Virus record (IMG/VR): IMGVR_UViG_3300025736_000003
DNA: 25,992 nt
DNA from: a virus
Direction: 5' to 3' (one strand)
Shown: positions 1 to 25,992 of the stretch, in pieces
Position numbering within the stretch: the first letter of the stretch is position 1
Layout of the letters: each line of letters starts with the position of its first letter
Notes under the pieces: model-generated
Seen by the model: only the letters and a program-made list of their open reading frames with translations
Told to the model about the DNA's origin: nothing
The model's database searches: none
Position numbers and translations under genes: made by a program

Positions 1-127
1 TGTGTATAACCCTATATCCTTCCTTCTCAGCATACTTTTTACAATATTCCTTCTGCTGTGCTATATTTTGTTGCTCGTCGTCTGTAGAGATTCTAGTGTA
101 TATTATTGCTTCCTTAACCATAAATTA
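1..127. repeat. Terminal overlap identical to 25866-25992 (circular-assembly signature); contains the first 121 nt of the recombinase gene
   Basis: Base-by-base comparison of the first and last 127 nt shows 100% identity. Minus-strand translation of 121..1 gives MVKEAIIYTRISTDDEQQ..., the same N-terminus as the CDS at 25489..25986. Confidence 0.9.
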
Positions 128-217
128 AATTTCCACCCTTATATTCTACAAATTCATTTCTTTGTATCCAGCTAAGGATTTTATCTTTTGTTAATCTATC
201 CATTCGTCTTAGGTTTG
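119..217. repeat. 99-bp perfect direct repeat, copy 1 (starts at the recombinase start codon and covers its upstream region)
   Basis: The string cataaattaaatttccaccc...cattcgtcttaggtttg at 119-217 is identical to 734-832 (offset 615 bp). Confidence 0.9.
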
Positions 218-683
218 TTAGGCGAATTTAGATAATCTTCCAGCTCATCCCAGAATCCTAATTGTGCTTCTATAATTTCTAATAAATCTTCTCTTGAGGT
301 TTCTTCACTAATAAAAACAAAGGTTGCATGTTTTATTATTTCTTGTATTTTTTTTATATCTTTATTGTCCATTGTTCCTATTAACTATCTATTACGTTCC
401 TCAACTTCTTTTAGATGTAATTGATAATCTTCCGTTTTCATCCATTCGGAATATTTACAATTATCAGAAAAGCAATCCATTAATGCTCCGCCACCATCTG
501 AACTAACTAGACATCCACATTTTAACTCTCTTTCAAATGTTCTACCCATTGTTCTTGTCTCCTGTAAATTGCTTTAACTGTTTGACACCTTAAACAAAGT
601 CTCTCTTTTCCAAATGAATTGTCGCCACATCTAATCGGTGTTCCGTTTTCATATGCCAGTAATACTCCACATCCCATCGTATT

Positions 684-902
684 CTAATCAGATTGCGAAT
701 ATAGTTTATTTATGAATGCTTCTAAATCATCAGCATAAATTAAATTTCCACCCTTATATTCTACAAATTCATTTCTTTGTATCCAGCTAAGGATTTTATC
801 TTTTGTTAATCTATCCATTCGTCTTAGGTTTGGACTGCAACTTCTTAAACCACCTTTAGATTTCTTCCATGGCGGATCTATCATTAAAATATCATATTTC
901 AT
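684..902 (-). CDS. Small DPPW-motif protein (72 aa), possibly a fragment or accessory subunit of an amino-methyltransferase
   Basis: IDPPW at residues 8-12 resembles motif IV of N6-adenine/N4-cytosine methyltransferases. Its start overlaps the stop of the upstream gene in an ATGA arrangement. It is too short to be a complete methyltransferase. Confidence 0.4.
   Translation of the reverse strand: MKYDILMIDPPWKKSKGGLRSCSPNLRRMDRLTKDKILSWIQRNEFVEYKGGNLIYADDLEAFINKLYSQSD
734..832. repeat. 99-bp perfect direct repeat, copy 2 (inside the 72-aa DPPW ORF)
   Basis: Identical to 119-217; encodes roughly residues 24-56 of the ORF at 684..902. Confidence 0.9.
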
Positions 903-1549
903 TCTTGCGACCCCTTCTTTAGATTAAGCGTCGAAAATATTTCATGGAATAATGCTGGAGGTATTATTGACCTTTCTTTATTTCCTTTTAACCCCTGTGT
1001 TCCTGTCTTGCTTCCTCTCGGTGCTGCTTCGTGATGGCAATGTTTAGCTCGTCCTTTTAGGAAGTTATGACATGTCTTTGGTTCCCATCCTGGTAAGTTA
1101 GTCCATATGTCTGTAGGTTTTGCTCTTGTGTCTCCGTATTGGCAATACCATGCGGTTTTTCTGCAATCAGTCGGTAAGAACCATCTAGCTCTTGCTCTTG
1201 GGTTTTCTATGAAGAATATTTTATTGTTCTTGTTGCAAAATCTCGCAATCATCAAACAAAAGTCCAATAACTCCTTACCTAGTCTTGCAGCATCCGTTTT
1301 CGGAGATCGATCTGCGTTCCAATGAGTATTCCCCGCAGCCATACTGAAAGTAGTACATGGTGGAGACATCCAAACAACATCAGCCTCTCTTATTTTATTC
1401 CAAATCTCTTCAGTTAATCCATTGTTTAAGTCTACTGTTACATCACAATTAAACTTTGGATTATTGTCTACTGTGAATGTTTCGCATCCAAGTTCCTTAG
1501 CAACCTTACTAAAACTACCTGTTCCTGCGAATAGTTCTACGGTCTTCAT
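899..1549 (-). CDS. AdoMet-dependent DNA methyltransferase-like protein (C5-cytosine type motifs), 216 aa, unusually short
   Basis: ELFAGTGSF (motif I, FxGxG) at residues 5-13, SPPCTTFSMAAG (PC catalytic motif) at 62-73, FFIENP (ENV-like motif VI) at about 111-117, and a GN....IPP motif-X-like C-terminus. AGGAGA lies 7 nt upstream of the ATG. Confidence 0.6.
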   Translation of the reverse strand: MKTVELFAGTGSFSKVAKELGCETFTVDNNPKFNCDVTVDLNNGLTEEIWNKIREADVVWMSPPCTTFSMAAGNTHWNADRSPKTDAARLGKELLDFCLMIARFCNKNNKIFFIENPRARARWFLPTDCRKTAWYCQYGDTRAKPTDIWTNLPGWEPKTCHNFLKGRAKHCHHEAAPRGSKTGTQGLKGNKERSIIPPALFHEIFSTLNLKKGSQE

Positions 1550-1682
1550 TGTGACTTCTCCTGCGACGCATTGTGGACAAATGTCGTATTCTCTTCCAAT
1601 TGTTTTTTTATCTGTTTTACCATTTTGTGTTTGCCCGAAGACTTGTGGGTAGAAAAATATCCGACTAATCTATAATATTAAT

Positions 1683-1975
1683 TTGACCTTGACCTTGACC
1701 ATGACCTTGACCATGACCCTGACCCTGACCCTGACCCTGACCCTGACCATGACCATGACCTTGACCCTGACCTTGACCCTGACCCTGACCATGACCCTGA
1801 CCCTGACCCTGACCCTGACCCTGACCCTGACCCTGACCATGACCCTGACCCTGACCCTGACCATGACCATGACCTTGACCCTGACCTTGACCCTGACCCT
1901 GACCATGACCCTGACCCTGACCCTGACCATGACCCTGACCATGACCTTGACCCTGACCTTGACCCTGACCATGAC
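1683..1975. repeat. Tandem hexanucleotide array (C/T/A)TGACC, about 49 units, with a higher-order duplication
   Basis: Direct reading shows a perfect 6-bp period with variation only at unit position 1. A block of about 65 bp recurs at roughly 1748 and 1863. All frames are open across it, which explains the four ORF-track entries here. Confidence 0.9.
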
Positions 1976-2009
1976 TTATCATAACACACACGAAGTATTA
2001 TTGCGTTAC

Positions 2010-2387
2010 TCATTTTTGCTCCGTTGGGAGTTTAAAGTCTATTTTAAATAAGTCTAACACAGCTTCTCTGTTTATTATAACTTCTGCATCTTTTGGATAT
2101 GGTTCTACTTCATCAAAACTTCCATTTTTACATGCACTTTGCCATCTACCCGTGTCTGGAATCCAACAAGCTTCAGCTAAAACTAATTCTTTATCACTTG
2201 ATTTGATTAATCTTCCTGTATAAATCATTGTTACTGTTCGGATTAAATAGGGTTCTCCTAATTGATAAAATCCTTTTGTTTCAGTCGTTGCTTTAGTTTT
2301 TTGTTTATCTAAAGTTTCTAGTTCTTTTTTAAGGTCTTCAAAGCTTAATTTGTTTAAATCTTTTTTTACTATTTTATTTACCTCCAT
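2010..2387 (-). CDS. Hypothetical protein (125 aa)
   Basis: ORF in the co-directional minus-strand block; no motif recognised. Confidence 0.45.
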   Translation of the reverse strand: MEVNKIVKKDLNKLSFEDLKKELETLDKQKTKATTETKGFYQLGEPYLIRTVTMIYTGRLIKSSDKELVLAEACWIPDTGRWQSACKNGSFDEVEPYPKDAEVIINREAVLDLFKIDFKLPTEQK

Positions 2388-4481: not shown

Positions 4482-4578
4482 TAGAACAACTAGAACAACT
4501 AGAACAGGTGATGTCCACTCAATTCTACATATGGAAAGTAAGTGGGGTTTGCCTGTTCTTCTTGTTCTACCTGTTCTA
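4482..4578. promoter_or_regulatory. Inverted arrays of AGAACA(A/G) repeats (3 + 3 copies) around a 43-bp spacer: candidate origin or operator
   Basis: Three tandem tagaacaac/tagaacagg units at 4482-4508 and, on the opposite strand, cctgttct/tcttgttcta/cctgttcta at 4552-4578. The right arm overlaps the last codons of the primase-helicase gene. Confidence 0.45.
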
Positions 4579-6189
4579 TTTGATAATTTCACCCTTAAAT
4601 TTAATTCCAACCCATGCCCTTCCCTTCTTATTTATATCCCATGGAAGATATTTTAATTTCTGTTCAATCCCTAATTGTTTCATTTTACTACCAATTACTA
4701 CATCTGAAATTTCTCTAAACCTATTTTCTTTACACCATTCGTTTAACTTTTTAGAAAAATCATTTTTCCATACTACACCATCAGAGTCTTCTTCTGTAAA
4801 TTCTTTAAGGAATTTTTCTAAAGGATTACTATGATCCTCATATTTTTTCATTCTATCTTCAATTGTACCTTCATTAGTAAATTCTCTTTTCTCTAATAAA
4901 TCTTTTAATATTAAAGAACATTTAACAGTTAGTGCTTCATATTCCTCATCTGGTATCTCAGATAATATATCTTTCTTTTCTGAAAATTGGTTTGGAAAAT
5001 CTATAATCATCCATCTTCTATAAAATCCAATAGTTTTATCATTTGTGGCTGGAAGATTATTAGTAGCAATCATTATTTTAGCATAATTAATTTCTTCAAA
5101 AGGATCTTTATTTTTATACTCAAACCCTATTAAATCTCCACCTGATAATTTCTTTAAGATAGAAGTTTTATTCATTTCTGAAAAATTAGTTTCTCCCATT
5201 TGACAAACTAATTTTTTATGTAATCGGGTAACCTCAAATCTACTTTGTAATAAAGTATCTAATTCTGTTGAACAGCAATTACTGCCCCCAATAAATTTCC
5301 TGAGTAAATTTAAGAAACAACTTTTACCATTCATACCACCACCAATAAAACAAAAGATTCTATGGATAGGATAATCTGGAATTAAACAATATGCTAATAT
5401 TTCATATAAGGTTTGAACGTGATCCTTCCCAACCCATTCCTCAAATATTTTGTCCATTATGGGAGTTTCATAAAATCCATCTTCATTTAATTTCCATGGT
5501 ATTGGATTAGTAACAAATAGATGTGGTGTTGCCCTTGATTGCTCCCCTGTCTTAATATTCATTATAGTATTTTCAAATTGAACTGTATATTTTCCTATTG
5601 GGGCCGGAATATTTAATCTACTTACTTGTTTAAGAGCTTCAATCATCTCATTTTTTTCCTTAGAATTTATTGTGTTTATTGTTGCTTGTTTATCAACTGC
5701 ATTTAATATATCAGTTTCATCTACTCTTTCCCATTTTGTTTCTGGCCAATTCCATAACCACCAACTTCTAGAATTATCATATAAACAGGGTTGTATTTCA
5801 ATAATATGTTCTGCTAATTCTTTTTTATCGAACATATTCCCAAGTTTTTCTGTTAAATTTTCGACAGGATAATTTTTCTTTTCATTTTCTTCAATAGTTC
5901 TTTTTTGTTTTTTAAAATAATTTAATTGTTCTTTAAGAAGAGTAATTTTTCTACCAGTTTTTTTAGATAAAATTTTTAACGCATCATCTATTTCTAAAGG
6001 GGACAACCCTAAGATATTTTTTAACTCTTTTATTACTTCATCTGACGATGATATTTTTATTTTTTTATCATTTATTAATTCAATAAATCCGTTATCAATA
6101 TATTCCTGTTCATCCCCTCCTGGAAAACTCGCCTCTTTTATCTCTCCAGCTTTCCCACCAGCATAATTTTTTAATATTTTAATTTTCAT
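4576..6189 (-). CDS. D5/P4-family primase-helicase (SF3 helicase domain), 537 aa
   Basis: D5_N-like segment with SRSWWLWNWPETKW. Walker A FIGGGMNGKS (the GxGxNGKS form typical of P4-type primase C-terminal domains), motif C IMIATNNLP, and YRRWMIIDF as an arginine-finger region. Confidence 0.8.
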   Translation of the reverse strand: MKIKILKNYAGGKAGEIKEASFPGGDEQEYIDNGFIELINDKKIKISSSDEVIKELKNILGLSPLEIDDALKILSKKTGRKITLLKEQLNYFKKQKRTIEENEKKNYPVENLTEKLGNMFDKKELAEHIIEIQPCLYDNSRSWWLWNWPETKWERVDETDILNAVDKQATINTINSKEKNEMIEALKQVSRLNIPAPIGKYTVQFENTIMNIKTGEQSRATPHLFVTNPIPWKLNEDGFYETPIMDKIFEEWVGKDHVQTLYEILAYCLIPDYPIHRIFCFIGGGMNGKSCFLNLLRKFIGGSNCCSTELDTLLQSRFEVTRLHKKLVCQMGETNFSEMNKTSILKKLSGGDLIGFEYKNKDPFEEINYAKIMIATNNLPATNDKTIGFYRRWMIIDFPNQFSEKKDILSEIPDEEYEALTVKCSLILKDLLEKREFTNEGTIEDRMKKYEDHSNPLEKFLKEFTEEDSDGVVWKNDFSKKLNEWCKENRFREISDVVIGSKMKQLGIEQKLKYLPWDINKKGRAWVGIKFKGEIIK

Positions 6190-7313
6190 TCTTCAACCAC
6201 ATCTTCTTTATTTTTTATTCTAACTTTACCATTACAATAAGGATAATCCTCACAATACCAAAAAACATTATAACCACCATTTGCTTTTCCTATCTTCATA
6301 CCCTTATTACAAAGAGGACATTTTTGTTTTACAAAAGAATTAACTGTAATATTTTTTAATTCTTCTTCTATTATATTTGTTACTCTCCCACGACATCTTT
6401 CAATTATTGGTGGAATAGAATTTTCAAATTCACTAAGAACATTTTGACAAGTTTCTTTTACTGAATATATATTTATATTGTCTGCTATATTTTTTAATTC
6501 CTCTAATTTTGAATTGTTTATATCTATTAAATTTATTTCATTCTCCGAATATTTCTTAATAGAATTTTTACTCTGTTTAACAACCTTATTTATATTATCC
6601 TCAAATAAATTAAGTTTAGCATCTATAACTTCACCATAATTATTAATTCTTTTTATAAAATTATTTTCCTTATATTCCTCTAACTCAGATAATAATTTTC
6701 TATGAGATTTAATTTCTATATTATCATATTTTAATTTCCAATTAGATGTGAAATCTTCTTTGGTAAACCATACCCCACTAAACCCCTCTATAACTCTACT
6801 ATAATGTCTTTCTATAGTTTCATCATCGTGCTGTTTACTTAATTGTATCTCAAAAAATAATCCTAAGCCATATTTTGGATGAAACTCCTTTAATAAAACC
6901 ATAACATCTGTAATTACATATTCTTCACCAACTGTTCTATATTCTAATAATATATCTTTAACAAGCGTCTTGTTTAATGGAACATTATCAATTTTTATTT
7001 CTCCAGAATATATCCCAGCATAAACATTTTCTTTTGCCTTTTTATGTCCATAACTTTCTCCATTCATATTACTTTTTAATTTGGGTTGGTTTGGCATAGA
7101 CCTAAAATATGCATGAACGATTTTATCATTAGCCTTAGAAAAAGATTTAACAAAAATCATCTCTACCTCTTCACCTTCATTACAGTATACTGGTGTCGCA
7201 ATCAACTTTTCTTTTTCTCTTCCTATCCATGTAGCATCGTTTTCAAATTTAAAAGCAGTAACTAGTTTTTGTGTTTCTTTATGTATAACAGAAATATATT
7301 TTGCGTCACTCAT
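6186..7313 (-). CDS. Replication-associated protein with C-terminal topoisomerase-type zinc ribbon (about 375 aa)
   Basis: C-terminal CPLCNKGMKIGKANGGYNVFWYCEDYPYCNGK matches the C4 zinc-ribbon pattern of topoisomerase I C-terminal fingers. ATGA-coupled to the helicase gene downstream. I placed the start at the ATG at 7313, which is ATGA-coupled to the upstream ORF; the track start at 7328 is TTG. Confidence 0.55.
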   Translation of the reverse strand: MSDAKYISVIHKETQKLVTAFKFENDATWIGREKEKLIATPVYCNEGEEVEMIFVKSFSKANDKIVHAYFRSMPNQPKLKSNMNGESYGHKKAKENVYAGIYSGEIKIDNVPLNKTLVKDILLEYRTVGEEYVITDVMVLLKEFHPKYGLGLFFEIQLSKQHDDETIERHYSRVIEGFSGVWFTKEDFTSNWKLKYDNIEIKSHRKLLSELEEYKENNFIKRINNYGEVIDAKLNLFEDNINKVVKQSKNSIKKYSENEINLIDINNSKLEELKNIADNINIYSVKETCQNVLSEFENSIPPIIERCRGRVTNIIEEELKNITVNSFVKQKCPLCNKGMKIGKANGGYNVFWYCEDYPYCNGKVRIKNKEDVVEE

Positions 7314-7546
7314 TTTATATTTATCCAATATAATTTATTAAGAATTTTATTTATTAAGAACTCTTTATTTGCAGGGCATATAGTTAGATCACCAACTTGT
7401 AATTTTCTACCCATATTTTTTTCTAAACACTTTATACATAATAAATCAGCATCATTATTATATTTTTCCCAAAGATTATTATTAATCATATAAAAATTAT
7501 TAGTATAGGTAATATCTAAACCACATTTATCACATTGGATATTCAT
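7310..7546 (-). CDS. Small zinc-ribbon protein (78 aa)
   Basis: CDKCG ... CIKC pairs; ATGA-type coupling with both neighbours. Confidence 0.45.
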   Translation of the reverse strand: MNIQCDKCGLDITYTNNFYMINNNLWEKYNNDADLLCIKCLEKNMGRKLQVGDLTICPANKEFLINKILNKLYWINIK

Positions 7547-10089: not shown

Positions 10090-11619
10090 CTAACAGCCTC
10101 CATAAAATATTCCAGTATCATTATATTTAGTAGTTCCAATACAAGCAAATTCTTCTACATATACAGCTTCGGTCATATTAACATTAGCTCCAATTTCAAA
10201 AATCCCATCGCCTGTCTCTGGATATAATTTTAAGTTTGGTGCATTATTCTTTAAATCAAATTCCCAATCAATAGTAGTAGTGTCATCAACAATATCATAT
10301 AAGCTAAATAGCCCAGGTTGTATTAGAGAATTATAATGAGTGCCCGTTGTCCAATCTGTGAAATCTGTTGCGTCTGTAACAAATAATATTGGAGACCCTG
10401 CAATCGCATCCATAAATCCATAAAAATAATTCCCAGAAATTCCATATCCTTCTATATCCCAATCCCCAGTAGCAGTCGAGCTACCGTCTGATTTCCAATA
10501 ATTAGAACTTCCATTCCAATTCCCATTAAAATAATCTGCTGTTATATTTGCTGTAGTTGTTATATCATTATCTTTAAAATTAACATCACCATCAGCTTCA
10601 ATAACCATTCTTTCATTCGAATATCCATTTGTATAGAATGCTAAGTCTGTTGCTACTTCTGTCCCCATTGAAAATCTCCCGTCGTTATATCCATAATAAC
10701 TAAAAATAAAATCTGTTGGAGAATAAACATCATTATAAAATAATCCTGTCCAATAACTTGCATCTGTATTTTGGTGAACTTCAAATGGTGCATAATTTAC
10801 ACTTGTTGTTTCACTACCCATTAAAAAACTTCCAGCAGTATTTGTTACACTTAATCCTGTTGATGATACACTTCCAGTTATATTAGAGTTTCCACTTACT
10901 TCTAAATCTCCTCCTATGTCTGCGTCGTCACCGACAAACAAATCATCCCAAGATATAATATCACCAATATTAGTTTCTATGTTTCCTGCTATAGCATAAA
11001 TATCTCCACCAGCAGAAGTTATTGCCCCGTTGGCACTAATAATTCCACTCGAAGTTATATTATCGAAAATTGAATTACCAATTACTTCTAATGTTCCATA
11101 GAACTTACTCGTTTGTAAATTGCCAATAGTTCCAACAAAGAAATTATTTCCGTTTAAAAAATTAATATATGTATTTCCACCGTCAAGAATCAAATCTGCT
11201 AATCCATTTGTAAAAATAGCTTCTCCAAAAATTCCATGATATAGTGAGAAGTCTGTATCAATATTATTACTTATTGTTAAATTATTTGATGTAAATGCTC
11301 CACCATTAATAATATCATTCCCACCCATATCAATATCTCCGGCCATTGTGCATCCGGTTAAAGCACACCACAAAGCATTTCCAAAAGATGTCAAATATGT
11401 TTCGCTAATAGTTAAGATTCCTCCGACGTTGTTGTGCTGGGTGGAATCAACACCTGTTAGAGCACCTATATTTGTTATCCAATTATTTGATGCATTAACA
11501 AAAGCTGTATTATTATCAAAAGGTATAGGGGGTGAATTTAAATCTATACCAATTATACCATCAACACCAGCACTAGAAAAACCAATCATTAAGATTAGCA
11601 ATAAAACCGAGTATTTCAT
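10090..11619 (-). CDS. Secreted Gly/Asn/Thr/Asp-rich repeat protein (509 aa), fibre/adhesin-like
   Basis: Signal peptide MKYSVLLLILMIGFSSAG, followed by low-complexity Gly-rich repeats (GGDLEVSGNSNITGSVSSTG...). Confidence 0.55.
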   Translation of the reverse strand: MKYSVLLLILMIGFSSAGVDGIIGIDLNSPPIPFDNNTAFVNASNNWITNIGALTGVDSTQHNNVGGILTISETYLTSFGNALWCALTGCTMAGDIDMGGNDIINGGAFTSNNLTISNNIDTDFSLYHGIFGEAIFTNGLADLILDGGNTYINFLNGNNFFVGTIGNLQTSKFYGTLEVIGNSIFDNITSSGIISANGAITSAGGDIYAIAGNIETNIGDIISWDDLFVGDDADIGGDLEVSGNSNITGSVSSTGLSVTNTAGSFLMGSETTSVNYAPFEVHQNTDASYWTGLFYNDVYSPTDFIFSYYGYNDGRFSMGTEVATDLAFYTNGYSNERMVIEADGDVNFKDNDITTTANITADYFNGNWNGSSNYWKSDGSSTATGDWDIEGYGISGNYFYGFMDAIAGSPILFVTDATDFTDWTTGTHYNSLIQPGLFSLYDIVDDTTTIDWEFDLKNNAPNLKLYPETGDGIFEIGANVNMTEAVYVEEFACIGTTKYNDTGIFYGGC

Positions 11620-17133: not shown

Positions 17134-20100
17134 TTACTTCTTTTTCTTTGTCGATTTAGTTTTCTTCTTCGGTGCTTTTCTTTTTGCTGCTTGGATTTCT
17201 ATAGTTTCTGTTTTCTTACTCAATCTCTTACTTCTTCGTTCAATAAATAATTTTCCTAAAGGTGTGTCTTTCTCTCTAAACCCTTTTGGTGCTTTTGGAG
17301 TTTTGCCAGGTGAACTTAATCTAAATGTTGCAGCTAAAGTTTTTGAGGTTACTCTTTTACCAAATTCGAATGCTTGTCGCTGTGTTCTAAAACTTCCAAC
17401 ATTAAAGAACTCTCCACCTCTACGAATTTGAACACCGAAGCCAACTCTTGGTGTTTTTGTGCTTGGTGTTTTTGGAATAATTGGAGGGAATATTATGTTT
17501 ATCTTTCCTATTATTTTGGGTGGTCTTGGTTGTGGTGGTTGAGGAAATCCACCAAATCCAATTATATTAGGTTGTGCAAATTGTTGCCTTTGGAGTTGTC
17601 GCTGTAATTGTTTCTGATTTAATTTTTGATCTTGTCTCTGAATAACTCTACTTATTACTTTCTCTACAGGTTGTTGAAATTGTTTAGACACTAAACGAGA
17701 ATCAGCCCTAGAACTTATCTTCTTTAATTGAGCAACCTTTACACCAAGTATAGAATTTATATCAAGATTAAATGATTGTGATAACTTAGGCTGAATTATT
17801 TGTATAGGAACATCTGTAACTGATACTTCTTGTTTTCCATTTAATAAAGAAGCTATACCTAACCCACCCAACCCTAAACTATCACGAGTACCGCTAATTT
17901 CTAATCCAGGAATAAATGGAGCAGCCCCACCAGATACAGAAGGTACTTTTAATATTTCTTCTGTTGGTTGTACAAATGTAGTTCTTGGTAAATTCAATTC
18001 CTCTCCAAATGCAAACTTAGATGGAACAGGGATTTGTTCTTGAATTTGTTTTGTTGGTTTTGTCTTACTAAAGAAGTCTGTTATTTGTCCCTTCCTAGCT
18101 GCTATCTTTGATTCCTGTGAACTTGTCAAAGATTTAACAACGTCATCAAACTGTTCCCTTGCTAAAGCCCTATCAATAACATCTACTTTTAACTTCCTAG
18201 CTTTTACAACTTTAGAACCAGCTTTTTGTAATGCCTTTAATTCTTTAGATGCAGGATTAATAAATAGGGTTGTAGTTCTCTGACCTGAAAATGCAGTTAT
18301 ATCTCTTTGTATGTTTGGCGTTATTACTTTTGTTAATAGTTTTTGTTTACCCACTTGTCCGAAAAGTGTTTGGTCGAATGTTTTATCAACTCCAAATTCT
18401 ATTTCTTGTGCAATCCTTCTTCTTATTTGAATATTACCCTTAGATCCAACTCTCTTTATTAATCCCTTTCTTTCACTAACTTGAATAATATCCAAGAAAG
18501 ATTTCTCTTTTTGTATGGTTTGTTTTATTCCTTTAGATATATCTCTACCAACTAATGTTGTTGATTCAAATTCTCCAGTAACAAGTTTTGATCTAAGAGA
18601 TACAGGCTTATCTGATAATATTAAATCTCCAACGTCGTCTGTAAGTTTACTACTCTTCTTAACCTTATCACCACTCTTAACAATTAATTCATTAAATGTT
18701 ACACCTGGTTGTCCGAACTGTTTATCAATCTTTAATTTATCTACTTTTGATTTTAAAAATTTTAATTCTGGCAAATCTCCTTTATTCAAACTTTGCTCAA
18801 AAATAGATTTCCCCTTCTTAAATAATTTAACAGTTCCTTTACCACCTTTAGTTACTTCAGTAATTTTAGTTATATCGCCAAACTTAATTGTTTCTTTTAG
18901 AACTCCATCACCTGCGACCTCCGCAAACCCTTCAAACTTTTGTAGTTTCTTACCAATCTTTCTCAACTCAATAACCTTACCGGTTTGCCTAGCTTCAGGT
19001 ATAAATTGTGTTTCTAATATTCTACCTTTTGTTTTAGAACTAACTATGGATTTAGATAGATCATCCACTTTGGAAATCTCTAATCTTGGTTTAGTTATTT
19101 TTAATTTAGAAGTTTCTTTAGCAATCCTTGTTTCTAATATTAATGCTTTTCTTTCTGGGATAGATACAAATTCTTGTAACTTCTTTACCCTACCTGCCTT
19201 AATAGCCTTAACTATACCTCTAGAACCAACCCCTATAGCAAGTCCAACCTCTAATGGATTTTCAACTGCAAAATCAAAGAACGATTCTGGTCCACCAAAA
19301 GCACCCTTACCAACTTGTGCCTCTAATCCTTTAGCAGCAACCTCACCAACGAATGCTCCAGGCAAAGTAAAACCTAATAGTTCAGTACCAACACGAACAG
19401 CCTTACCACCAAACTCTGCCCTTTTTTCAAACCCAGCTTTCTTTTCTATCCCAGGTATATCTGATTTTAATATATCAGTAAATGATTGTTCAACCTCTCC
19501 TAAGAAAATCTCTTTACCAAATCCAATCAAACCTTCACCTTGAAATTTAGATATTGGAACATCTCTAATCTGACCTGGTAATCCTAACCTAACAGTTGGT
19601 CCACCGCCTAACTGGAATGTAGTAGTGTCTCCTTCTTTAACTTCTGTAACAGTTCCTCCACCTGCTTTAAACTGTGACAACTTTAATGAGAAATCTTCCT
19701 GACTTAATCCTTCTTGTAATACTGCTTCTGTTAATGAACTAAACTCTTTTAATTGTCTATCAATTATTCTCTTAGCTTCTGCTATTTGTCCTATTGGAGT
19801 ATCTCCTAGTGATGGTAATGTTTCTCTTAATGGTACGACAACCTTTTCTCTAAAAGCACCAACACCTGACTCAACACCACTAATGATTGGCTGAACACCA
19901 AACTCACTTATTGGAGTTATAAACTCTTTCTCAACTGCCCTAAATACTTTTGATTCACTAAGTGGTATTACAACTTCTTTTTCAAATGTCTTTGCAATAT
20001 CTTTAGATGCCAACCCAACTTCACCAGCGACAATCTTTCCACCAAAACTTAAGGGAGATAAATTTTGTAACTTACTAACTTCAACATCTCTAATCTGTCC

Positions 20101-20787
20101 AGGTAATCCAAACCTGATAGTTTCTCCTGGTTGTTTAGATTCTATGATTTCTTTTGCTTTCCTTAAATCCTGTGCAACAATACCTATTGGAGTTTCTCCA
20201 AGTGATGGGAGTTTCTCTCTTAATGGAACAACTAATTTTTCTCTGAATGTAGAGACACCCTTCTTAACTACTTGAGTAACATCTACTTGTTTTGGTTTTC
20301 CTGTTTTAATTCTAGCAACCTTACTAACAACTTTCTCAACCACACCTTTTTCCGGTGCAGCTTTTACCTCACCAGTAGTACCTGATTCTGCTCTGGCGGT
20401 TTTACCGGCCTGTGAAACCTCAGCTCTTTCTCTCGCTAAAATAATATTTCTTGAAGATGATTCTGAAGATAAAATTCCTGACTGTTTATTTTGTCTTTGT
20501 AGTTCTTCTATCCTCTGTTGTCTAACTGTAACAAGTTCAGCTCTTTTTTGGTTCTCAGCCTGTACCCTCACAGCTTCTTGTTGTTGTCGTGATGCTTGGC
20601 TTTGCCTATCTAAAGCTTCTTGGGAAATAGATTGTCTTCCCCTAGAACTCCTACCTCTACTTGAGCTACTACCACTTGAAATACCTGATTCTTTTACTGG
20701 GCCTTTATAATTTGGTGCAATTATCTTTAACTTTTTTGCAGCATCTTCTCTACTTTTTTTTAATGTTCTTTCAAACTGACTAGCCAT
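17134..20787 (-). CDS. Giant charged protein with long internal repeats (1217 aa), putative virion/structural or scaffold protein
   Basis: Internal protein repeats FREKLVVPLREKLPSLGETPIG / FREKVVVPLRETLPSLGDTPIG and RFGLPGQIRDVEVSKLQ / RLGLPGQIRDVPISKFQ, mirrored at DNA level (about 20090-20230 versus 19560-19860). Lys/Gln/Glu-rich, no TM segment. Confidence 0.6.
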   Translation of the reverse strand: MASQFERTLKKSREDAAKKLKIIAPNYKGPVKESGISSGSSSSRGRSSRGRQSISQEALDRQSQASRQQQEAVRVQAENQKRAELVTVRQQRIEELQRQNKQSGILSSESSSRNIILARERAEVSQAGKTARAESGTTGEVKAAPEKGVVEKVVSKVARIKTGKPKQVDVTQVVKKGVSTFREKLVVPLREKLPSLGETPIGIVAQDLRKAKEIIESKQPGETIRFGLPGQIRDVEVSKLQNLSPLSFGGKIVAGEVGLASKDIAKTFEKEVVIPLSESKVFRAVEKEFITPISEFGVQPIISGVESGVGAFREKVVVPLRETLPSLGDTPIGQIAEAKRIIDRQLKEFSSLTEAVLQEGLSQEDFSLKLSQFKAGGGTVTEVKEGDTTTFQLGGGPTVRLGLPGQIRDVPISKFQGEGLIGFGKEIFLGEVEQSFTDILKSDIPGIEKKAGFEKRAEFGGKAVRVGTELLGFTLPGAFVGEVAAKGLEAQVGKGAFGGPESFFDFAVENPLEVGLAIGVGSRGIVKAIKAGRVKKLQEFVSIPERKALILETRIAKETSKLKITKPRLEISKVDDLSKSIVSSKTKGRILETQFIPEARQTGKVIELRKIGKKLQKFEGFAEVAGDGVLKETIKFGDITKITEVTKGGKGTVKLFKKGKSIFEQSLNKGDLPELKFLKSKVDKLKIDKQFGQPGVTFNELIVKSGDKVKKSSKLTDDVGDLILSDKPVSLRSKLVTGEFESTTLVGRDISKGIKQTIQKEKSFLDIIQVSERKGLIKRVGSKGNIQIRRRIAQEIEFGVDKTFDQTLFGQVGKQKLLTKVITPNIQRDITAFSGQRTTTLFINPASKELKALQKAGSKVVKARKLKVDVIDRALAREQFDDVVKSLTSSQESKIAARKGQITDFFSKTKPTKQIQEQIPVPSKFAFGEELNLPRTTFVQPTEEILKVPSVSGGAAPFIPGLEISGTRDSLGLGGLGIASLLNGKQEVSVTDVPIQIIQPKLSQSFNLDINSILGVKVAQLKKISSRADSRLVSKQFQQPVEKVISRVIQRQDQKLNQKQLQRQLQRQQFAQPNIIGFGGFPQPPQPRPPKIIGKINIIFPPIIPKTPSTKTPRVGFGVQIRRGGEFFNVGSFRTQRQAFEFGKRVTSKTLAATFRLSSPGKTPKAPKGFREKDTPLGKLFIERRSKRLSKKTETIEIQAAKRKAPKKKTKSTKKKK

Positions 20788-21137
20788 CAATAAACTCTAA
20801 CTAAAAATGTTTTCCCATAATCTTTCGTAACCCACGTTCTGGATTCTATTAAAGAATAAATGTTATCACCATCTTTTAATTTAATTCCTGTATCAATATC
20901 ATTTTTTTGTGGTTGTCTTGAAAAAGTATTTGGTGCTAATCCTAACTTAATCAAACCCACATAATTATTATTATCACCAATATCAATCTTTATATTATCA
21001 AAATCAACAACATCTTTATTATGCTCAACAGCACCATAGATTCCTACAAAAGAACCAATTAATAATACAGATAAGATAGCCGCCACCGAGTATAAAACTT
21101 TAGGGTTGTTTAATAATTGTTTTACTTCTTTATCCAT
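20787..21137 (-). CDS. Small membrane-anchored protein (about 116 aa)
   Basis: I placed the start at the ATG at 21137 (MDKEVKQLLNNPKVLYSVAAILSVLLIGSFVGIYGA, with an N-terminal TM or signal anchor). The track start at 21158 is a GTG lying inside the upstream repeats. Confidence 0.45.
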   Translation of the reverse strand: MDKEVKQLLNNPKVLYSVAAILSVLLIGSFVGIYGAVEHNKDVVDFDNIKIDIGDNNNYVGLIKLGLAPNTFSRQPQKNDIDTGIKLKDGDNIYSLIESRTWVTKDYGKTFLVRVY

Positions 21138-21350: not shown

Positions 21351-21406
21351 ATCTTAATTAGCAAAGCAAAGTTTAAATACTTACTTACTTACTAATTAAT
21401 GTAAAG

Positions 21407-21859
21407 ATGGCGATGGATGATAATAAAGAAACTACATTTAATGAAGCAGTTTTGAAGATGCAAAGGATTCATATTCTACAACAAGAAATTAATCTACTTA
21501 GAATTAATCTACTTGCATGGAATCTTGAATATAGTAAATATAACTATGATGTTGTAATATCTGATTTAATAAGTTTATGTTATGAGGTTAGGCCTCTTAT
21601 GAAAATAGAGGAAAGAAATGAATTTAGTTTGCTTAAGGAGTTAGTTGATGATTTAATATCATACAAACCTATATTTAAAAAAATTAATACTTCTAATTTC
21701 TCAGGTAAAAATAATAATGAAAGTATCGACACTAATAATTGGAATATGTTAAGGGGTGTTATATTTAAATTTGAGGACTTTGCTAGGGATCAAGTTGATA
21801 TACATGGGCTGTCTGCTCCAAAGAAAAAGGATGCCTCTAGGGCTGCGGTTGATCTATAA
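21407..21859 (+). CDS. Hypothetical protein (150 aa)
   Basis: First gene of the plus-strand block; its stop overlaps the next start (TAATG). Confidence 0.5.
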   Translation: MAMDDNKETTFNEAVLKMQRIHILQQEINLLRINLLAWNLEYSKYNYDVVISDLISLCYEVRPLMKIEERNEFSLLKELVDDLISYKPIFKKINTSNFSGKNNNESIDTNNWNMLRGVIFKFEDFARDQVDIHGLSAPKKKDASRAAVDL

Positions 21860-22872
21860 TGAAATTCTTAGAAAAAGAGTTCCCAAAGGGTTCGTTCCCA
21901 AAACAACAAACAGATGGTGCATATATAAATCAAACATTAGCAGATAACTTAAATGTATATGCTAAACAGATTGTAAAAGATATGCACTTCTTAATAATTA
22001 TATCAGGTAACGACGCTGTTGGAAATGGTAAATCTACTTTGGCAACACATGTTGGTGCATACTTAACTAATAAAATAAATGAATTACATGGTATAAATAA
22101 TACCTTCACTTCTAGCAATGTTGCACTAAGGGCGAAAGATTTAGTTAAGCAAAGTTTTGATAACCCACAATACTCAGTTAATGTTTTAGATGAGGGTGAC
22201 GATTTAACAACTCATGGTATGAAGCAATCTGCAGTTGAGCTTAAGAGATACTTCCGTAAATGTAGGCAACTAAATCAAATCTTAATATTAATATTACCAT
22301 CCTTCTTTGAACTCCCAAAATTCTATGCATTAGCAAGAAGCCATTCTTTAATTAATGTTAAATTTCATGGAGAGTTTGAGCGTGGTTCATTCGATTTCTA
22401 TGGACCAAAGAGTAAAAAGAAATTATATTTGAAAGGAAAAAGAGAGTGGGATTATGACGCTGCATCTCCAGACTTCTATGGATCTTTCTTCTCTACTTAT
22501 ACCTTCTTCCCTGGCTTGAATGATGAGATTGCTGCTTATAAAAAGAAGAAGTATACTGATATGATTGATGATGCTGATGAGGATCACACACAACTATCAC
22601 CTATACAAGTAGAACGAATGTTAAAGGCTAAATTGTTTAAGCAGGTGTATAATAATATCCCCAATATTACTATACCCATATTGTCTAATGCGTTTGGCGT
22701 ATCAAGTAGGACTGGTGATAGATATTTATCCAACGAATATGACGAAAAAATAAAAATCCTAAAACACGAAATCGACGCCCCGCCGACTAATACTAATAAT
22801 ACCATAAGGGATTTGGATGATGTGGTGAGTCCAGAGAAGCATCCAGGGGTTATAGTAAGGACTATTAGTTAG
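21859..22872 (+). CDS. P-loop NTPase with C-terminal HTH-like segment (337 aa), AAA+/DnaA- or IstB-like architecture
   Basis: Walker A GNDAVGNGKST around residues 51-61, Walker B VNVLDEGDD around 108-116, and a C-terminal ITIPILSNAFGVSSRTGDRYLS helix-turn-helix-like segment. Confidence 0.6.
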   Translation: MKFLEKEFPKGSFPKQQTDGAYINQTLADNLNVYAKQIVKDMHFLIIISGNDAVGNGKSTLATHVGAYLTNKINELHGINNTFTSSNVALRAKDLVKQSFDNPQYSVNVLDEGDDLTTHGMKQSAVELKRYFRKCRQLNQILILILPSFFELPKFYALARSHSLINVKFHGEFERGSFDFYGPKSKKKLYLKGKREWDYDAASPDFYGSFFSTYTFFPGLNDEIAAYKKKKYTDMIDDADEDHTQLSPIQVERMLKAKLFKQVYNNIPNITIPILSNAFGVSSRTGDRYLSNEYDEKIKILKHEIDAPPTNTNNTIRDLDDVVSPEKHPGVIVRTIS

Positions 22873-22989: not shown

Positions 22990-23304
22990 ATGAGAAACAA
23001 TAAGAAAGGACAGAGTGCTAATATTGGTGCAATGATAGGAGGTATTATAGGTTTGATATTTCTAGTTGTTGTAGGATTTGTATCTTTAGATATTTTGACT
23101 GGTGCTGGATTGCTAACAAGTGATTCTGCATTTGATAATGCTACAGATAGATTAGTTGGTAATCTGACGGCTGGTGTAGACAAGGTATCTGTAAAGATTC
23201 CAATAATGTTTACTATCACTGTAGCTGTTCTATTACTTGGATTGATTGTATTCCTTGTCATCAGGGCAAGACAAGCACAGCAAGTTCAAGGCGGAACTAT
23301 TTAA
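22990..23304 (+). CDS. Small hydrophobic two-helix protein (104 aa), candidate major virion/membrane structural protein
   Basis: Canonical AGGAGG 8 nt upstream of the ATG, preceded by TATA-like boxes. Two hydrophobic segments (IGAMIGGIIGLIFLVVVGFV and IMFTITVAVLLLGLIVFLVI). Confidence 0.5.
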   Translation: MRNNKKGQSANIGAMIGGIIGLIFLVVVGFVSLDILTGAGLLTSDSAFDNATDRLVGNLTAGVDKVSVKIPIMFTITVAVLLLGLIVFLVIRARQAQQVQGGTI

Positions 23305-23766: not shown

Positions 23767-24105
23767 CTAGTATCTATGGTTGAGTTCAGTTGGGCTATTA
23801 GATTCTGTAGTGTCATTATCGACTCCACTAGCTCCGCCCTGAAGTAACTCTCGTTTTGCATTGATAACAGCGTTTTGTAAGTCTGGTTTTCTTTCAGTAT
23901 GTTTTCCACTTTCTCTGAATCCCACTCCGTTTGGTTTCCACTCACTTTGGTTAGCTGCTTCTCCTTTTCGTCCTGGATCATCTTCTTCTTTATACCTCCT
24001 TTTCATTCTTCTTATTTTTATATCTTCTATAATTTTAAGTGTGAACCAAACTAGAACACACCAGATAACAAGTCCAATAAATAATTCTATCCACATCTTA
24101 AGCAC
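23767..24105 (-). CDS. Hypothetical protein with N-terminal TM helix (112 aa)
   Basis: ORF with N-terminal hydrophobic segment WIELFIGLVIWCVLVWF. It overlaps an alternative-frame ORF (23715..23981), so the true frame is uncertain. Confidence 0.35.
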   Translation of the reverse strand: MLKMWIELFIGLVIWCVLVWFTLKIIEDIKIRRMKRRYKEEDDPGRKGEAANQSEWKPNGVGFRESGKHTERKPDLQNAVINAKRELLQGGASGVDNDTTESNSPTELNHRY

Positions 24106-24796
24106 TAACTAATCCAGTCCCTCCTGAACAAATAGAATCAACATGACCCAGTGCTCTCATAATAGGTTCTTGTGCTTCTGCAAGTGCCCTTGCAGCTTCA
24201 GATAATTCTCCTCCAATAACTCCTATTTGTTCTAACATAAACCATATACCTGCAAACAAAATTATTAAAACAAAACCTCCCATTATCCAAGAACCATACC
24301 TATCCATAAAAGTTATCTTAGGGCCATAATTTTCTGCAGCATTTTTTCTCATAGCGACGCTAACATATTTTATGTCCCTATCAACCATTTCAATATCTAA
24401 CGTACCCATTTTTGCATCTAAATCTCCCAAAACAATATTATACCACCCACCATCTTGGCCAATAGCAAACCAATATTTATTTGATCCCATCTTTTTACCG
24501 TAGGCAGTTAGTGGCATCTTCTTTTTTCTAAGCCAAAAAACCTCAGTACCATCTTTACTTAATCTTAAATATTTTGCAGTATCGTTCATGGTGTTTTGCC
24601 AACCCTGCCCAGAGATATTTTCAAACACAGCTATATTAAATTTGTATAATTTCTTATTAAAATACCACCAAATAATTGCGGCCGCTATTCCAAGCATTAC
24701 AATAACAGCGAAGCCAACCATAAGATAAATACCCCATGCCGAATTAGCCATACTCGGTAAATCTATCCCGGTTTCCATTCCTGCAACTGTCCCCAT
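24098..24796 (-). CDS. Membrane protein (232 aa, 2 TM)
   Basis: Hydrophobic helices near residues 20-45 and 175-195; GGAAGG about 12 nt upstream. Confidence 0.55.
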   Translation of the reverse strand: MGTVAGMETGIDLPSMANSAWGIYLMVGFAVIVMLGIAAAIIWWYFNKKLYKFNIAVFENISGQGWQNTMNDTAKYLRLSKDGTEVFWLRKKKMPLTAYGKKMGSNKYWFAIGQDGGWYNIVLGDLDAKMGTLDIEMVDRDIKYVSVAMRKNAAENYGPKITFMDRYGSWIMGGFVLIILFAGIWFMLEQIGVIGGELSEAARALAEAQEPIMRALGHVDSICSGGTGLVSA

Positions 24797-24936
24797 TAAT
24801 AATTATCCTTCCTTTGTTTTTCTTCTTTAATTAATCTCATAAAAAAATCTTCCCATGTTTCCCCATTCTTAACATCTATTGCTAAATTGTGTTGATCTCT
24901 CGAAAGAGGAATATGCACATATCTTACATCACCCAT
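24796..24936 (-). CDS. Small protein (46 aa), possibly RHH-like
   Basis: Manual translation MGDVRYVHIPLSRDQHNLAIDVKNGETWEDFFMRLIKEEKQRKDNY; its stop overlaps the next start (TAATG). Confidence 0.3.
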   Translation of the reverse strand: MGDVRYVHIPLSRDQHNLAIDVKNGETWEDFFMRLIKEEKQRKDNY

Positions 24937-24956
24937 AATTATTAGTAAGTTAGTTA

Positions 24957-25088
24957 CTATTTAAACTTTGTGTTATGTAGTTTTTTATCGAGTGCATTCT
25001 TTAATATTTTAGTTGATATAAAATAAATTAATATTTTTAAAGAGATAACCACTGCTGCTGCTAAAAATATTTTTATCCAAAAATTCAT
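24957..25088 (-). CDS. Tiny membrane protein (43 aa)
   Basis: Manual translation MNFWIKIFLAAAVVISLKILIYFISTKILKNALDKKLHNTKFK; ATGA overlap with the upstream ORF. Confidence 0.3.
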   Translation of the reverse strand: MNFWIKIFLAAAVVISLKILIYFISTKILKNALDKKLHNTKFK

Positions 25089-25264
25089 TGTATATATGTT
25101 TTCCTTTTCCACGACTTCCAGCAACGTCTATGAAAAATCATACCACTCTTTTTAGTTTTCTTATCTTCTTTCCTTATGGGTTTTCCACAGGCTACACATT
25201 TTCTTAAATTTGGATCATCCATCTCAATCTTTCTTTGAACAGCATCCTTAAACCATTTAAACAT
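25085..25264 (-). CDS. Small basic zinc-ribbon-like protein (59 aa)
   Basis: Manual translation ...RKCVACGKPIRKEDKKTKKSGMIFHRRCWKSWKRK; start overlaps the stop of the AbrB-like ORF. Confidence 0.35.
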   Translation of the reverse strand: MFKWFKDAVQRKIEMDDPNLRKCVACGKPIRKEDKKTKKSGMIFHRRCWKSWKRKTYIQ

Positions 25265-25430
25265 TTTGATTCTCCAATATTAATTTATTACCAGAAAAAT
25301 CAAAATTAATTATAGATCCCTTACCTGCACATAAAACTTTCTCAACCATCCACTCCGGAATAGTAAGTGTATAACGCCCAGAATGATATTGTAATTTCAT
25401 GTTTTTATATTGTTTTTTGTTTGTCGCCAT
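25257..25430 (-). CDS. AbrB/SpoVT-like small DNA-binding protein (57 aa)
   Basis: Manual translation MATNKKQYKNMKLQYHSGRYTLTIPEWMVEKVLCAGKGSIINFDFSGNKLILENQNV fits the swapped-hairpin AbrB/MazE pattern. A TTTATATATAA box lies about 28-38 nt upstream of the ATG with no SD, as in a leaderless-type promoter. Confidence 0.4.
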   Translation of the reverse strand: MATNKKQYKNMKLQYHSGRYTLTIPEWMVEKVLCAGKGSIINFDFSGNKLILENQNV

Positions 25431-25488
25431 TTTAAGTAGTATTATGTTGGCATGGTTATATATAAAGTTGTTGTATTAAGGGAGGTCG

Positions 25489-25986
25489 CTAAATCTTCTT
25501 ATTTCTTCCAACCGCACCTTTCTTCCGGCCCTTATATTTCCCTTCAGCTTTTGCCCTAGCTATACCAACTGCTCTCTTTATATTAAGATTATCAATATAA
25601 AAAGCATTCATAGCCATTTTAATTCTAAAAGTGAACTTCCCCATAGGATTAACTAAATCAACCATCTCAGATAAAGATTTAATAATAATATTATTTTTAA
25701 TAACAAAACGTTCAAACCAAACGCTATCATAAAAATCTCTGCAAATCCTATCAACATCCTGAACAATTAAATGTACTGTTGGGTTCTCCTCTAAAAACTT
25801 TAACATCCTTTTACCGCCGCTTCGTTCACAAACATTTATCTTACCACTAATCTTATCTCCAATGGTGTGTATAACCCTATATCCTTCCTTCTCAGCATAC
25901 TTTTTACAATATTCCTTCTGCTGTGCTATATTTTGTTGCTCGTCGTCTGTAGAGATTCTAGTGTATATTATTGCTTCCTTAACCAT
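25489..25986 (-). CDS. Small serine recombinase (resolvase/invertase catalytic domain), 165 aa, no obvious C-terminal HTH
   Basis: N-terminal YTRISTDDEQ motif with Arg10/Ser12 arranged as in resolvase/invertase active sites, and a DRICRD motif around residue 80. The protein stops at ...KGRKKGAVGRNKKI, where the HTH domain of typical resolvases would start. Confidence 0.75.
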   Translation of the reverse strand: MVKEAIIYTRISTDDEQQNIAQQKEYCKKYAEKEGYRVIHTIGDKISGKINVCERSGGKRMLKFLEENPTVHLIVQDVDRICRDFYDSVWFERFVIKNNIIIKSLSEMVDLVNPMGKFTFRIKMAMNAFYIDNLNIKRAVGIARAKAEGKYKGRKKGAVGRNKKI

Positions 25987-25992
25987 AAATTA
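25866..25992. repeat. Terminal overlap, second copy (identical to 1-127)
   Basis: Identical 127-mer at both window ends, implying a unit length of 25,865 bp. Confidence 0.9.

What the first reader, a model, noticed from the sequence alone, without database searches (positions are those of the whole stretch)
1..25992. Complete circular replicon with a 127-bp assembly overlap
The first and last 127 nt are identical and the recombinase ORF runs continuously across the junction. The window is therefore one full copy of a roughly 25,865-bp circular (or terminally redundant) element, not a chromosomal fragment. Every feature should be read in circular context.
Basis: seen in the sequence. Interest (0 to 1): 0.6.

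Follow-up and report, generated by a model that had tools for sequence, protein, structure and literature searches.

The report
Complete circular archaeal virus-like genome
The window is one whole copy of a 25,865-bp circular DNA element from Ace Lake, Antarctica, most likely a spindle-shaped-type virus of tiny DPANN archaea. The 127-bp repeat at its ends is only the overlap an assembler leaves when it closes a circle, so the circularity is real but routine.

Summary
Bases 1-127 equal 25866-25992 exactly, and 127 is the longest prefix that equals a suffix, so the unit is 25,865 bp. A 165-aa serine-recombinase gene (25489..25986, minus strand) runs across the junction.

- An Ace Lake JGI contig bridges the junction at 100% identity.
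- A MEGAHIT contig of the same element (99.97% identical) closes on itself with its own 141-nt overlap at a different cut point.
- Two other lineages of the family also assemble as circles.

The 127 nt is therefore a k-mer overlap, not a biological terminal repeat. The cut point is not random. It lies at an assembly-graph branch, because four variants of the sequence just upstream of the recombinase coexist in the population.

The element encodes:
- a D5-like helicase, methyltransferases and large glycoprotein-like surface proteins;
- an ATPase related to His1 ORF16 and SSV1 B251;
- a conserved 104-aa two-helix protein whose best matches are the capsid proteins of SSV1 and His1.

A relative sits integrated beside host genes in a Woesearchaeota MAG.

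Verdict: a complete circular genome of an uncultivated virus-like element of the spindle-shaped type. It is ordinary as an assembly feature and moderately interesting as biology.

The parts
1..127 (.). Left copy of the assembly overlap (identical to 25866-25992). Contains the first 121 nt of the recombinase gene.
25866..25992 (.). Right copy of the assembly overlap
25489..25986 (-). Small serine recombinase, 165 aa. It has the catalytic domain and E-helix only, with no C-terminal HTH. It spans the circle junction.
   Evidence: PF00239 at 2e-26 and phrog_125 DNA invertase at 1.6e-28. The junction-spanning ORF is shown. A relative's 233-aa serine recombinase has an HTH and is only 26% identical.
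128..688 (-). Variable segment directly upstream of the recombinase. It carries three small ORFs (about 522-677, 385-549 and 196-372 on the minus strand). In other assemblies it is replaced or deleted.
119..217 (.). Copy 1 of an exact 99-nt direct repeat. It starts at the recombinase start codon.
734..832 (.). Copy 2 of the exact 99-nt direct repeat, inside the 72-aa ORF. Contig L007 has a single copy, i.e. a 615-nt deletion variant.
684..902 (-). 72-aa ORF with a DPPW motif, which looks like a truncated N6-adenine methyltransferase (judged by eye; no Pfam hit)
899..1549 (-). DNA methyltransferase, 216 aa
   Evidence: phrog_757 at 9e-24; PF00145 weak at 3.7e-4, below the cut-off
1684..1975 (.). 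(TGACCC)n hexamer array, 48.7 copies. Copy number differs between assemblies; the MEGAHIT circle has 21 fewer.
4576..6189 (-). D5-like SF3 helicase/primase, the replication protein (537 aa)
   Evidence: PF19263 at 2e-17, D5_N weak, phrog_864 at 6e-64
6186..7328 (-). 380-aa protein with a C-terminal Cys-rich zinc-ribbon-like motif; no family hit
8278..10089 (-). 603-aa secreted, NxS/T-rich protein with a weak right-handed beta-helix match
   Evidence: PF13229 at 1.5e-3, below the cut-off; sequence
10090..11619 (-). 509-aa signal-peptide protein; no family hit
12375..14888 (-). 837-aa LamG-domain protein with C-terminal membrane anchors, a candidate adhesin or end-filament protein
   Evidence: PF13385 at 2.8e-11; conserved position in relatives
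17134..20790 (-). 1,218-aa repeat-containing protein with very basic ends. Length varies from 808 to 1,218 aa in relatives.
21367..21396 (+). Archaeal BRE/TATA-like promoter (AAAGTTTAAATA) 28 nt upstream of the ATG at 21407. It is one of a pair of 30-nt copies.
   Evidence: inverted-repeat pair I3
24941..24970 (-). Second copy of the same promoter-like 30-mer, facing leftwards
21407..21859 (+). 150-aa protein always found upstream of the ATPase in relatives
21859..22872 (+). P-loop ATPase with a C-terminal HTH; the family hallmark, related to His1 ORF16 and SSV1 B251
   Evidence: 188 homologs at 53-85% identity. hhalign against His1 ORF16 gives E=2.6e-5 over 238 columns; SSV1 B251 gives E=0.024. 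The AF2 model has a RecA-like fold.
22990..23304 (+). 104-aa protein of two hydrophobic helices with a conserved NLT sequon; candidate major capsid protein
   Evidence: 55 homologs at 60-88% identity. AF2 gives two long helices. Its top two hhalign hits among 125 ORFs of SSV1, His1 and HRPV-1 are SSV1 VP1 and His1 VP21.
24098..24796 (-). 232-aa membrane protein conserved across the family

Best explanation
The window is one complete copy of a 25,865-bp circular double-stranded DNA element, plus a 127-nt overlap produced by the assembler. A de Bruijn graph assembler walked a cycle and stopped when it met its starting k-mer again (k=127, the usual largest metaSPAdes k; the assembler is inferred, not shown).

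The cycle was cut at 127|128 because that 127-mer is a branch vertex. In the Ace Lake population at least four versions of the sequence just upstream of the recombinase start codon coexist.

The element is most likely the genome of an uncultivated temperate virus of the spindle-shaped type that infects DPANN archaea of the Woesearchaeota type. The proposed roles are inferred from homology only:
- It replicates with its own D5-like helicase.
- It protects its DNA with methyltransferases.
- It builds particles from a small two-helix capsid protein and large glycoprotein-like surface proteins.
- It carries an ORF16/B251-like ATPase.
- It uses a recombinase for multimer resolution or integration.

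The confidence of 0.62 is for the whole statement. That it is a complete circular element with an assembly-derived overlap is about 0.9; the spindle-type virus reading is about 0.6-0.65 given that.
For: Exact 127-nt overlap and a junction-spanning recombinase ORF. The junction is bridged at 100% identity by an independent Ace Lake contig (sample identity). An independent MEGAHIT assembly closes with a 141-nt overlap at a different cut point. The 595-bp size difference is fully explained by the variable segment (561 nt replaced by 92 nt, a net loss of 469) plus 21 fewer hexamer repeats (126).

Contig ends or divergence points from five assemblies pile up at 127|128 and at 688|689. Relatives are circularly permuted or have an 81-nt overlap.

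No terminase, portal, HK97 capsid or conjugation genes appear in the Pfam or PHROG scans. The ATPase matches His1 ORF16 (E=2.6e-5, 238 columns) and SSV1 B251. The 104-aa protein's two best hits among 125 control ORFs are the SSV1 and His1 capsid proteins. The promoters look archaeal.

In the scan of species-representative genomes, relatives fall mostly in DPANN MAGs, and the closest two are Woesearchaeota. One lies next to DapB, MscS and other host genes behind a tyrosine integrase on a 150-kb contig. Another lies inside a closed 648-kb archaeal chromosome.
Against: No reads were mapped, so the topology rests on assemblies. The assembler of the window is not known. The capsid-protein similarity is weak (pairwise E=5e-4 and 5e-3, short hydrophobic segments); Foldseek gave no hit and SSV1 VP3 did not score. 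No virion has been observed. The recombinase here lacks a DNA-binding domain, so its activity is uncertain. Host assignment relies on MAG binning; some relatives sit in bins labelled Thermoplasmatales, Methanosarcinales, Saccharibacteria or Dehalococcoidales.
Confidence: 0.62

Rival explanations
1. It is a circular integrative plasmid or other non-viral mobile element of DPANN archaea. The large surface proteins would serve the cell, for example in attachment to its host cell, and the ATPase would be a replication initiator rather than part of a virus.
For: No capsid protein is proven. Foldseek found nothing for the 104-aa protein. His1 ORF16 and SSV1 B251 are annotated as DnaA-like replication proteins. 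LamG and beta-helix surface proteins are also common in DPANN cells (my own knowledge). Only 6 relatives are in IMG/VR.
Against: The small two-helix protein is very strongly conserved next to the ATPase. Its two best matches are spindle-virus capsid proteins. No conjugation or partition genes were found. There was no match in the plasmid collection.
Confidence: 0.25
2. It is a linear genome with a real 127-bp direct terminal repeat, or a circularly permuted, terminally redundant, headful-packaged phage genome.
For: A prefix that equals the suffix is also what a true direct terminal repeat would give.
Against: An independent assembly of the same element has a 141-nt overlap at a different place, and another contig runs straight through the supposed end. 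The overlap lengths (127, 141, 81) track the assembly, not the biology. No terminase or portal was found.
Confidence: 0.03
3. It is a chromosomal fragment, a tandemly integrated provirus, or a mis-closure caused by repeats.
For: Relatives do integrate. Some contigs leave the terminus at 127|128 into other sequence. An exact 99-nt repeat lies next to the junction.
Against: The alternative flanks are methyltransferase-gene fragments, small ORFs, or a related element with its own helicase, and none is a host gene. The 99-nt repeat is shorter than k, and the same arrangement appears at 100% identity in a second assembly. No host gene is present in the 25.9 kb.
Confidence: 0.04

Closest known systems
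Circular metagenomic contigs with a k-mer-length end overlap (what virus catalogues such as IMG/VR report as a 'DTR')
   Same: The prefix exactly equals the suffix, its length matches a typical largest k, a gene is continuous across the junction, and independent assemblies are circular permutations.
   Different: The cut point is not arbitrary. It coincides with a population-level branch just upstream of the recombinase gene.
Spindle-shaped archaeal viruses: Fuselloviridae (SSV1, 15.5 kb circular) and Halspiviridae (His1, 14.5 kb linear)
   Same: A small capsid-like protein with two hydrophobic helices and a glycosylation sequon. An ORF16/B251-like ATPase with a C-terminal HTH. Large end-filament-like glycoproteins. 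A circular dsDNA genome like SSV1. Relatives carry tyrosine integrases and integrate.
   Different: The genome is about 70% larger and has a D5-like SF3 helicase. This member has a serine recombinase without an HTH instead of an SSV-type integrase. The host lineage is DPANN and the GC content is 32%. Capsid similarity is only marginal, and morphology is unknown.
DPANN-associated viruses and mobile elements described by Wu, Liu & Ni 2024 (Nat Microbiol 9:3362) and nanohaloarchaeal spindle-shaped viruses (Zhou et al. 2025, bioRxiv 10.1101/2025.02.15.638363)
   Same: Metagenome-derived elements linked to DPANN hosts, some of the spindle-shaped type.
   Different: No direct comparison was possible.
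Small serine recombinases (resolvase/invertase family, e.g. gamma-delta resolvase, Hin)
   Same: Full-length match to the PF00239 catalytic domain, with the YTRISTDD active-site motif and the E-helix.
   Different: The protein ends after GRKKGAVGRNKKI and lacks the C-terminal helix-turn-helix DNA-binding domain.

Membership tests
Assembly-derived circular contig | Exact identity of contig prefix and suffix | tested here: met
   1-127 = 25866-25992, with no longer match
Assembly-derived circular contig | Overlap length equals the assembler's k | tested here: inconclusive
   127 is the usual largest metaSPAdes k (my own knowledge), but the assembler of this contig is not recorded here. The MEGAHIT 'k141' contig of the same element has a 141-nt overlap.
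Assembly-derived circular contig | Independent assemblies bridge the junction or are cut elsewhere | tested here: met
   L002 bridges it at 100% identity; k141_140111 is cut at window 689-829
Assembly-derived circular contig | Junction-spanning reads with even coverage | not testable with these tools
   No read data available
Spindle-shaped archaeal viruses (Fuselloviridae/Halspiviridae type) | VP1/VP21-type major capsid protein with two hydrophobic helices | tested here: inconclusive
   The architecture is met. hhalign ranks SSV1 VP1 (E=4.8e-4) and His1 VP21 (E=5e-3) first and second of 125 ORFs. However, the E-values are weak, SSV1 VP3 does not score and Foldseek finds nothing.
Spindle-shaped archaeal viruses (Fuselloviridae/Halspiviridae type) | B251/ORF16-like ATPase | tested here: met
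   A1 against His1 ORF16 gives E=2.6e-5, probability 75%, 238 columns, and ranks top of 49 ORFs. SSV1 B251 gives E=0.024.
Spindle-shaped archaeal viruses (Fuselloviridae/Halspiviridae type) | SSV-type tyrosine integrase | tested here: not met
   The window has only a serine recombinase. Relatives carry PF00589 integrases.
Spindle-shaped archaeal viruses (Fuselloviridae/Halspiviridae type) | Spindle-shaped virion | not testable with these tools
   Needs electron microscopy
Pleolipoviridae | VP8-type ATPase and VP3/VP4 core proteins | tested here: not met
   hhalign of A1 against HRPV-1 VP8 gives E=0.32, and A2 against VP3 gives E=0.59
Tailed phages (Caudoviricetes) with terminal repeats | Terminase, portal and HK97-fold capsid | tested here: not met
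   No such hits in Pfam or PHROGs for any ORF scanned
Small serine recombinase (resolvase/invertase) | PF00239 catalytic domain with the active-site serine | tested here: met
   E=2e-26, profile positions 1-145 of 145; YTRISTDD motif in the sequence
Small serine recombinase (resolvase/invertase) | C-terminal HTH DNA-binding domain | tested here: not met
   The protein stops about 8 residues after the GRKKG motif. All five contigs encode the same 165 aa. The 233-aa relative has the HTH.

The most novel reading that the evidence does not exclude
The element represents an undescribed family of roughly 23-30 kb circular spindle-type viruses of Woesearchaeota/Pacearchaeota. Its locus upstream of the recombinase would be a cassette-exchange hot spot, where an HTH-less serine recombinase swaps methyltransferase-gene fragments and small early genes between co-infecting relatives at the shared TAATTTATG joint.
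Probability: 0.12. Interest if true: 0.7.

Novelty: new member of a known kind. Interest (0 to 1): 0.35.

Why it matters
Knowing the contig is a closed circle means the gene set is complete and must be read across the ends. This applies to the recombinase gene, the variable locus and the 99-nt repeat. It also gives a full-length reference genome for a widespread and entirely unannotated family: 188 ATPase homologs passed the search threshold, with contigs mostly up to about 31 kb. The family is linked to DPANN archaea, whose viruses are poorly known. The circularity itself is routine.

Tried and rejected
- An exact 47-mer from the recombinase gene was not found in IMG/VR.
- tblastn of the ATPase against the phage and plasmid collections found nothing.
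- The helicase gave only distant, generic D5-like hits in phages.
- Pfam and PHROG scans of the remaining ORFs gave nothing above threshold.
- PDB profile searches gave nothing significant. The ATPase family had no real hit, and the 104-aa family matched only the Inovirus p8 coat protein at E=0.32.
- Foldseek placed the ATPase model only in the generic RecA/Zot-like P-loop class.
- Foldseek of the 104-aa model against BFVD returned no hits.
- There are no tRNA genes and no Rfam families in the window.
- The Wu et al. 2024 paper could not be read.
- Pleolipovirus membership was tested and rejected.
- I considered whether the 99-nt repeat (99 is also a SPAdes k) marks a mis-join. I rejected this because the repeat is shorter than the final k and the same arrangement occurs at 100% identity in a second assembly.
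Full report
**1. Observation**

The first and last 127 nt of the 25,992-nt window are identical, and 127 is the longest prefix that equals a suffix. Chance cannot produce this. The non-redundant unit is 25,865 bp.

On a doubled circle, one ORF of at least 60 aa spans the junction. It is a 165-aa protein (window 25489..25986, minus strand; ATG at unit position 121). It matches the Pfam Resolvase catalytic domain over its full length (E=2e-26) and PHROG DNA invertase.

The window length equals the longest contig recorded for its ATPase (25,992), so the window is a whole contig.

**2. Is it really a circle?**

Exact-protein look-ups found the same element in other assemblies.
- JGI contig Ga0307928_10008162 (7,658 nt) comes from IMG metagenome 3300031227, an Ace Lake, Antarctica, sample. 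It reads window 1700->1 and continues without a break into 25865->20241 at 100% identity.
- ENA contig ERZ27315525:k141_140111 (MEGAHIT, 25,411 nt; rebuilt from L001 and L009) is 99.97% identical over 24,183 nt. It has its own exact 141-nt end overlap, located at window 689-829.
- That contig's unit is 25,270 bp. The 595-bp difference from the window is fully explained. The segment 128-688 (561 nt) is replaced by 92 nt, a loss of 469, and there are 21 fewer copies of a hexamer repeat, a loss of 126.
- In JGI sample 3300005935 the element is split into two contigs that together cover everything except 128-688.

Overlap lengths equal to the assembler's k, different cut points and a bridging contig all indicate a closed cycle in the assembly graph. 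They argue against a fixed biological terminal repeat.

Relatives behave the same way. Two 23,801-nt MEGAHIT contigs of a lineage with 66% ATPase identity are circular permutations of each other, with each contig's end internal to the other. A 30,167-nt IMG/VR relative has an exact 81-nt overlap.

I could not map reads, so the topology rests on assemblies.

**3. Why the cut is at 127|128**

Contig ends or divergence points from five assemblies coincide at 127|128, and others coincide at 688|689. Four versions of the sequence upstream of the recombinase ATG exist:
- **A** (window and L002): a 72-aa DPPW-motif ORF, three small ORFs, then a second copy of a 99-nt repeat.
- **D** (L007): a single repeat copy joined directly to the recombinase, i.e. 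A minus 615 nt.
- **B** (k141_140111): 92 nt encoding the first 24 aa of a C5-methyltransferase-like gene.
- **C** (L004): the same 92 nt preceded by sequence that also occurs in a different, related element with its own D5-like helicase and methyltransferase genes (L048, from the same lake).

All four share TAATTTATG at the recombinase start.

In a literal sense this is seen. However, the flanks are population variants or recombinants within a methyltransferase-gene island, not host chromosome.

**4. What the element is**

GC content is 32% and most genes are on the minus strand.

Recognisable genes:
- a D5-like SF3 helicase (4576..6189);
- a DNA methyltransferase (899..1549);
- a LamG-domain protein of 837 aa;
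- a protein of 603 aa with a weak beta-helix match;
- the recombinase.

The rest have no Pfam or PHROG family. Many are membrane-anchored and rich in NxS/T sequons. No terminase, portal, HK97 capsid or conjugation gene was found.

Two copies of a 30-nt element containing AAAGTTTAAATA lie about 28 nt upstream of start codons, as archaeal BRE/TATA promoters do.

The P-loop ATPase (21859..22872) has 188 homologs at 53-85% identity, all unannotated, on contigs mostly up to about 31 kb. Relatives share a conserved gene order.

In the scan of species-representative genomes, relatives lie mostly in DPANN MAGs, and the two closest are Woesearchaeota.
- In one, on a 150-kb contig, host genes (DapB, MscS and others) are followed by a tyrosine integrase, a D5-like helicase and the ATPase (68% identity) at the contig end. 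This is an integrated relative.
- A distant relative forms a roughly 6.5-kb island inside a closed 648-kb archaeal chromosome.

**5. Virus or plasmid?**

Profile comparison places the ATPase family with His1 ORF16. The match has E=2.6e-5, probability 75% and 238 columns, is nearly full length and includes the C-terminal HTH. It is the best of 49 control ORFs. SSV1 B251 matches more weakly (E=0.024). The pleolipovirus VP8 does not match.

The adjacent 104-aa protein is very conserved (60-88% identity). It has two long hydrophobic helices, a conserved NLT sequon and a basic C-terminus.

I compared this protein with all 125 six-frame ORFs of at least 60 aa from SSV1, His1 and HRPV-1. Its two best matches are exactly the two spindle-virus capsid proteins:
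- SSV1 VP1, E=4.8e-4, aligning KKGQSANIG with the KGEATNIG region. From my own knowledge, that region is where VP1 is processed.
- His1 VP21, E=5e-3, aligning ANLLTADSAFD with ANLLPTAFD.

Each match is weak on its own. Foldseek gave nothing and SSV1 VP3 did not score.

Taken together, I favour a temperate virus of the spindle-shaped type infecting DPANN archaea. This is about 0.6 of the probability given that it is a circular element. A non-viral integrative element remains a real alternative (0.25).

**6. How it most likely works**

Shown:
- a closed circular assembly;
- a complete set of replication, recombination, methylation and putative structural genes;
- integration of relatives next to host genes.

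Inferred:
- replication driven by the D5-like helicase;
- methyltransferases acting against host restriction;
- the two-helix protein and the large glycoprotein-like proteins forming the particle;
- the recombinase resolving multimers or mediating rearrangement at the variable joint.

The recombinase lacks the usual HTH, so its activity is uncertain.

**7. Comparison and novelty**

As an assembly feature this is the standard signature of a circular contig. As biology it is a new, divergent member of a known kind: circular dsDNA archaeal viruses of the spindle-shaped type, in a DPANN-linked family.

I found this family unannotated in every resource available here. It may overlap with groups named by Wu et al. 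2024, which I could not read.

Interest is 0.35. The circularity claim is correct but routine. The element and its variable recombinase-adjacent locus are moderately interesting.

Noticed in passing
window 119-217 and 734-832: An exact 99-nt direct repeat. Copy 1 begins at the recombinase start codon and overlaps the 127-nt end overlap by 9 nt. Another assembly (L007) has a single copy, i.e. a 615-nt deletion between the repeats.
   Followed up: yes
window 127|128 and 688|689; loci L001, L004, L007, L048: A hypervariable joint upstream of the recombinase. Four alternative arrangements are built from methyltransferase-gene fragments and small ORFs, and all share TAATTTATG. One arrangement links to a different related element from the same lake.
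   Followed up: partly
window 25489-25986 (-): The serine recombinase has a complete catalytic domain but no C-terminal helix-turn-helix. The identical 165-aa protein is encoded in five assemblies, so the truncation is not a sequencing error.
   Followed up: partly
window 1684-1975: A (TGACCC)n hexamer array of about 49 copies in a locally GC-rich stretch, open in several frames (a Gly/Ser/Trp-rich 111-aa ORF on the minus strand). The copy number differs by about 20 between assemblies. Its function is unknown; it could be coding or a protein-binding array.
   Followed up: partly
window 19540-20575 (in the 1,218-aa gene); L002 7324-7658: Internal diverged repeats of about 390-525 nt. One Ace Lake contig carries an extra in-frame 333-nt duplication of 20241-20575, and several contigs break here. 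The homologous protein ranges from 808 to 1,218 aa in relatives.
   Followed up: partly
window 21367-21396 (+) and 24941-24970 (-): Two copies (90% match) of a 30-nt promoter-like element, CAAAGTTTAAATA followed by a (CTTA)-rich tract. They drive two convergent gene blocks: the ATPase and capsid-like block, and the block with the 232-aa membrane protein.
   Followed up: partly
L026 (CP070794.1, closed 648-kb archaeal chromosome), about 8600-15100: A roughly 6.5-kb island with a beta-helix glycoprotein, a 73-aa two-helix protein, a related ATPase and a 162-aa tyrosine integrase. It appears to sit between the two halves of a RuBisCO-like gene.
   Followed up: no
L014 (Woesearchaeota MAG CAZLHJ010000001.1, last 10.7 kb of a 150-kb contig): An integrated relative. 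Host genes are followed by a tyrosine integrase (5391-6203), a D5-like helicase and the ATPase, and the contig ends inside the element.
   Followed up: partly
window 22990-23304 (+): The only PDB sequence-profile hit of the 104-aa family is the Inovirus major coat protein p8 (E=0.32). The ATPase model also resembles Zot-type assembly ATPases of Inoviridae. This is probably convergence in small membrane coat proteins.
   Followed up: no
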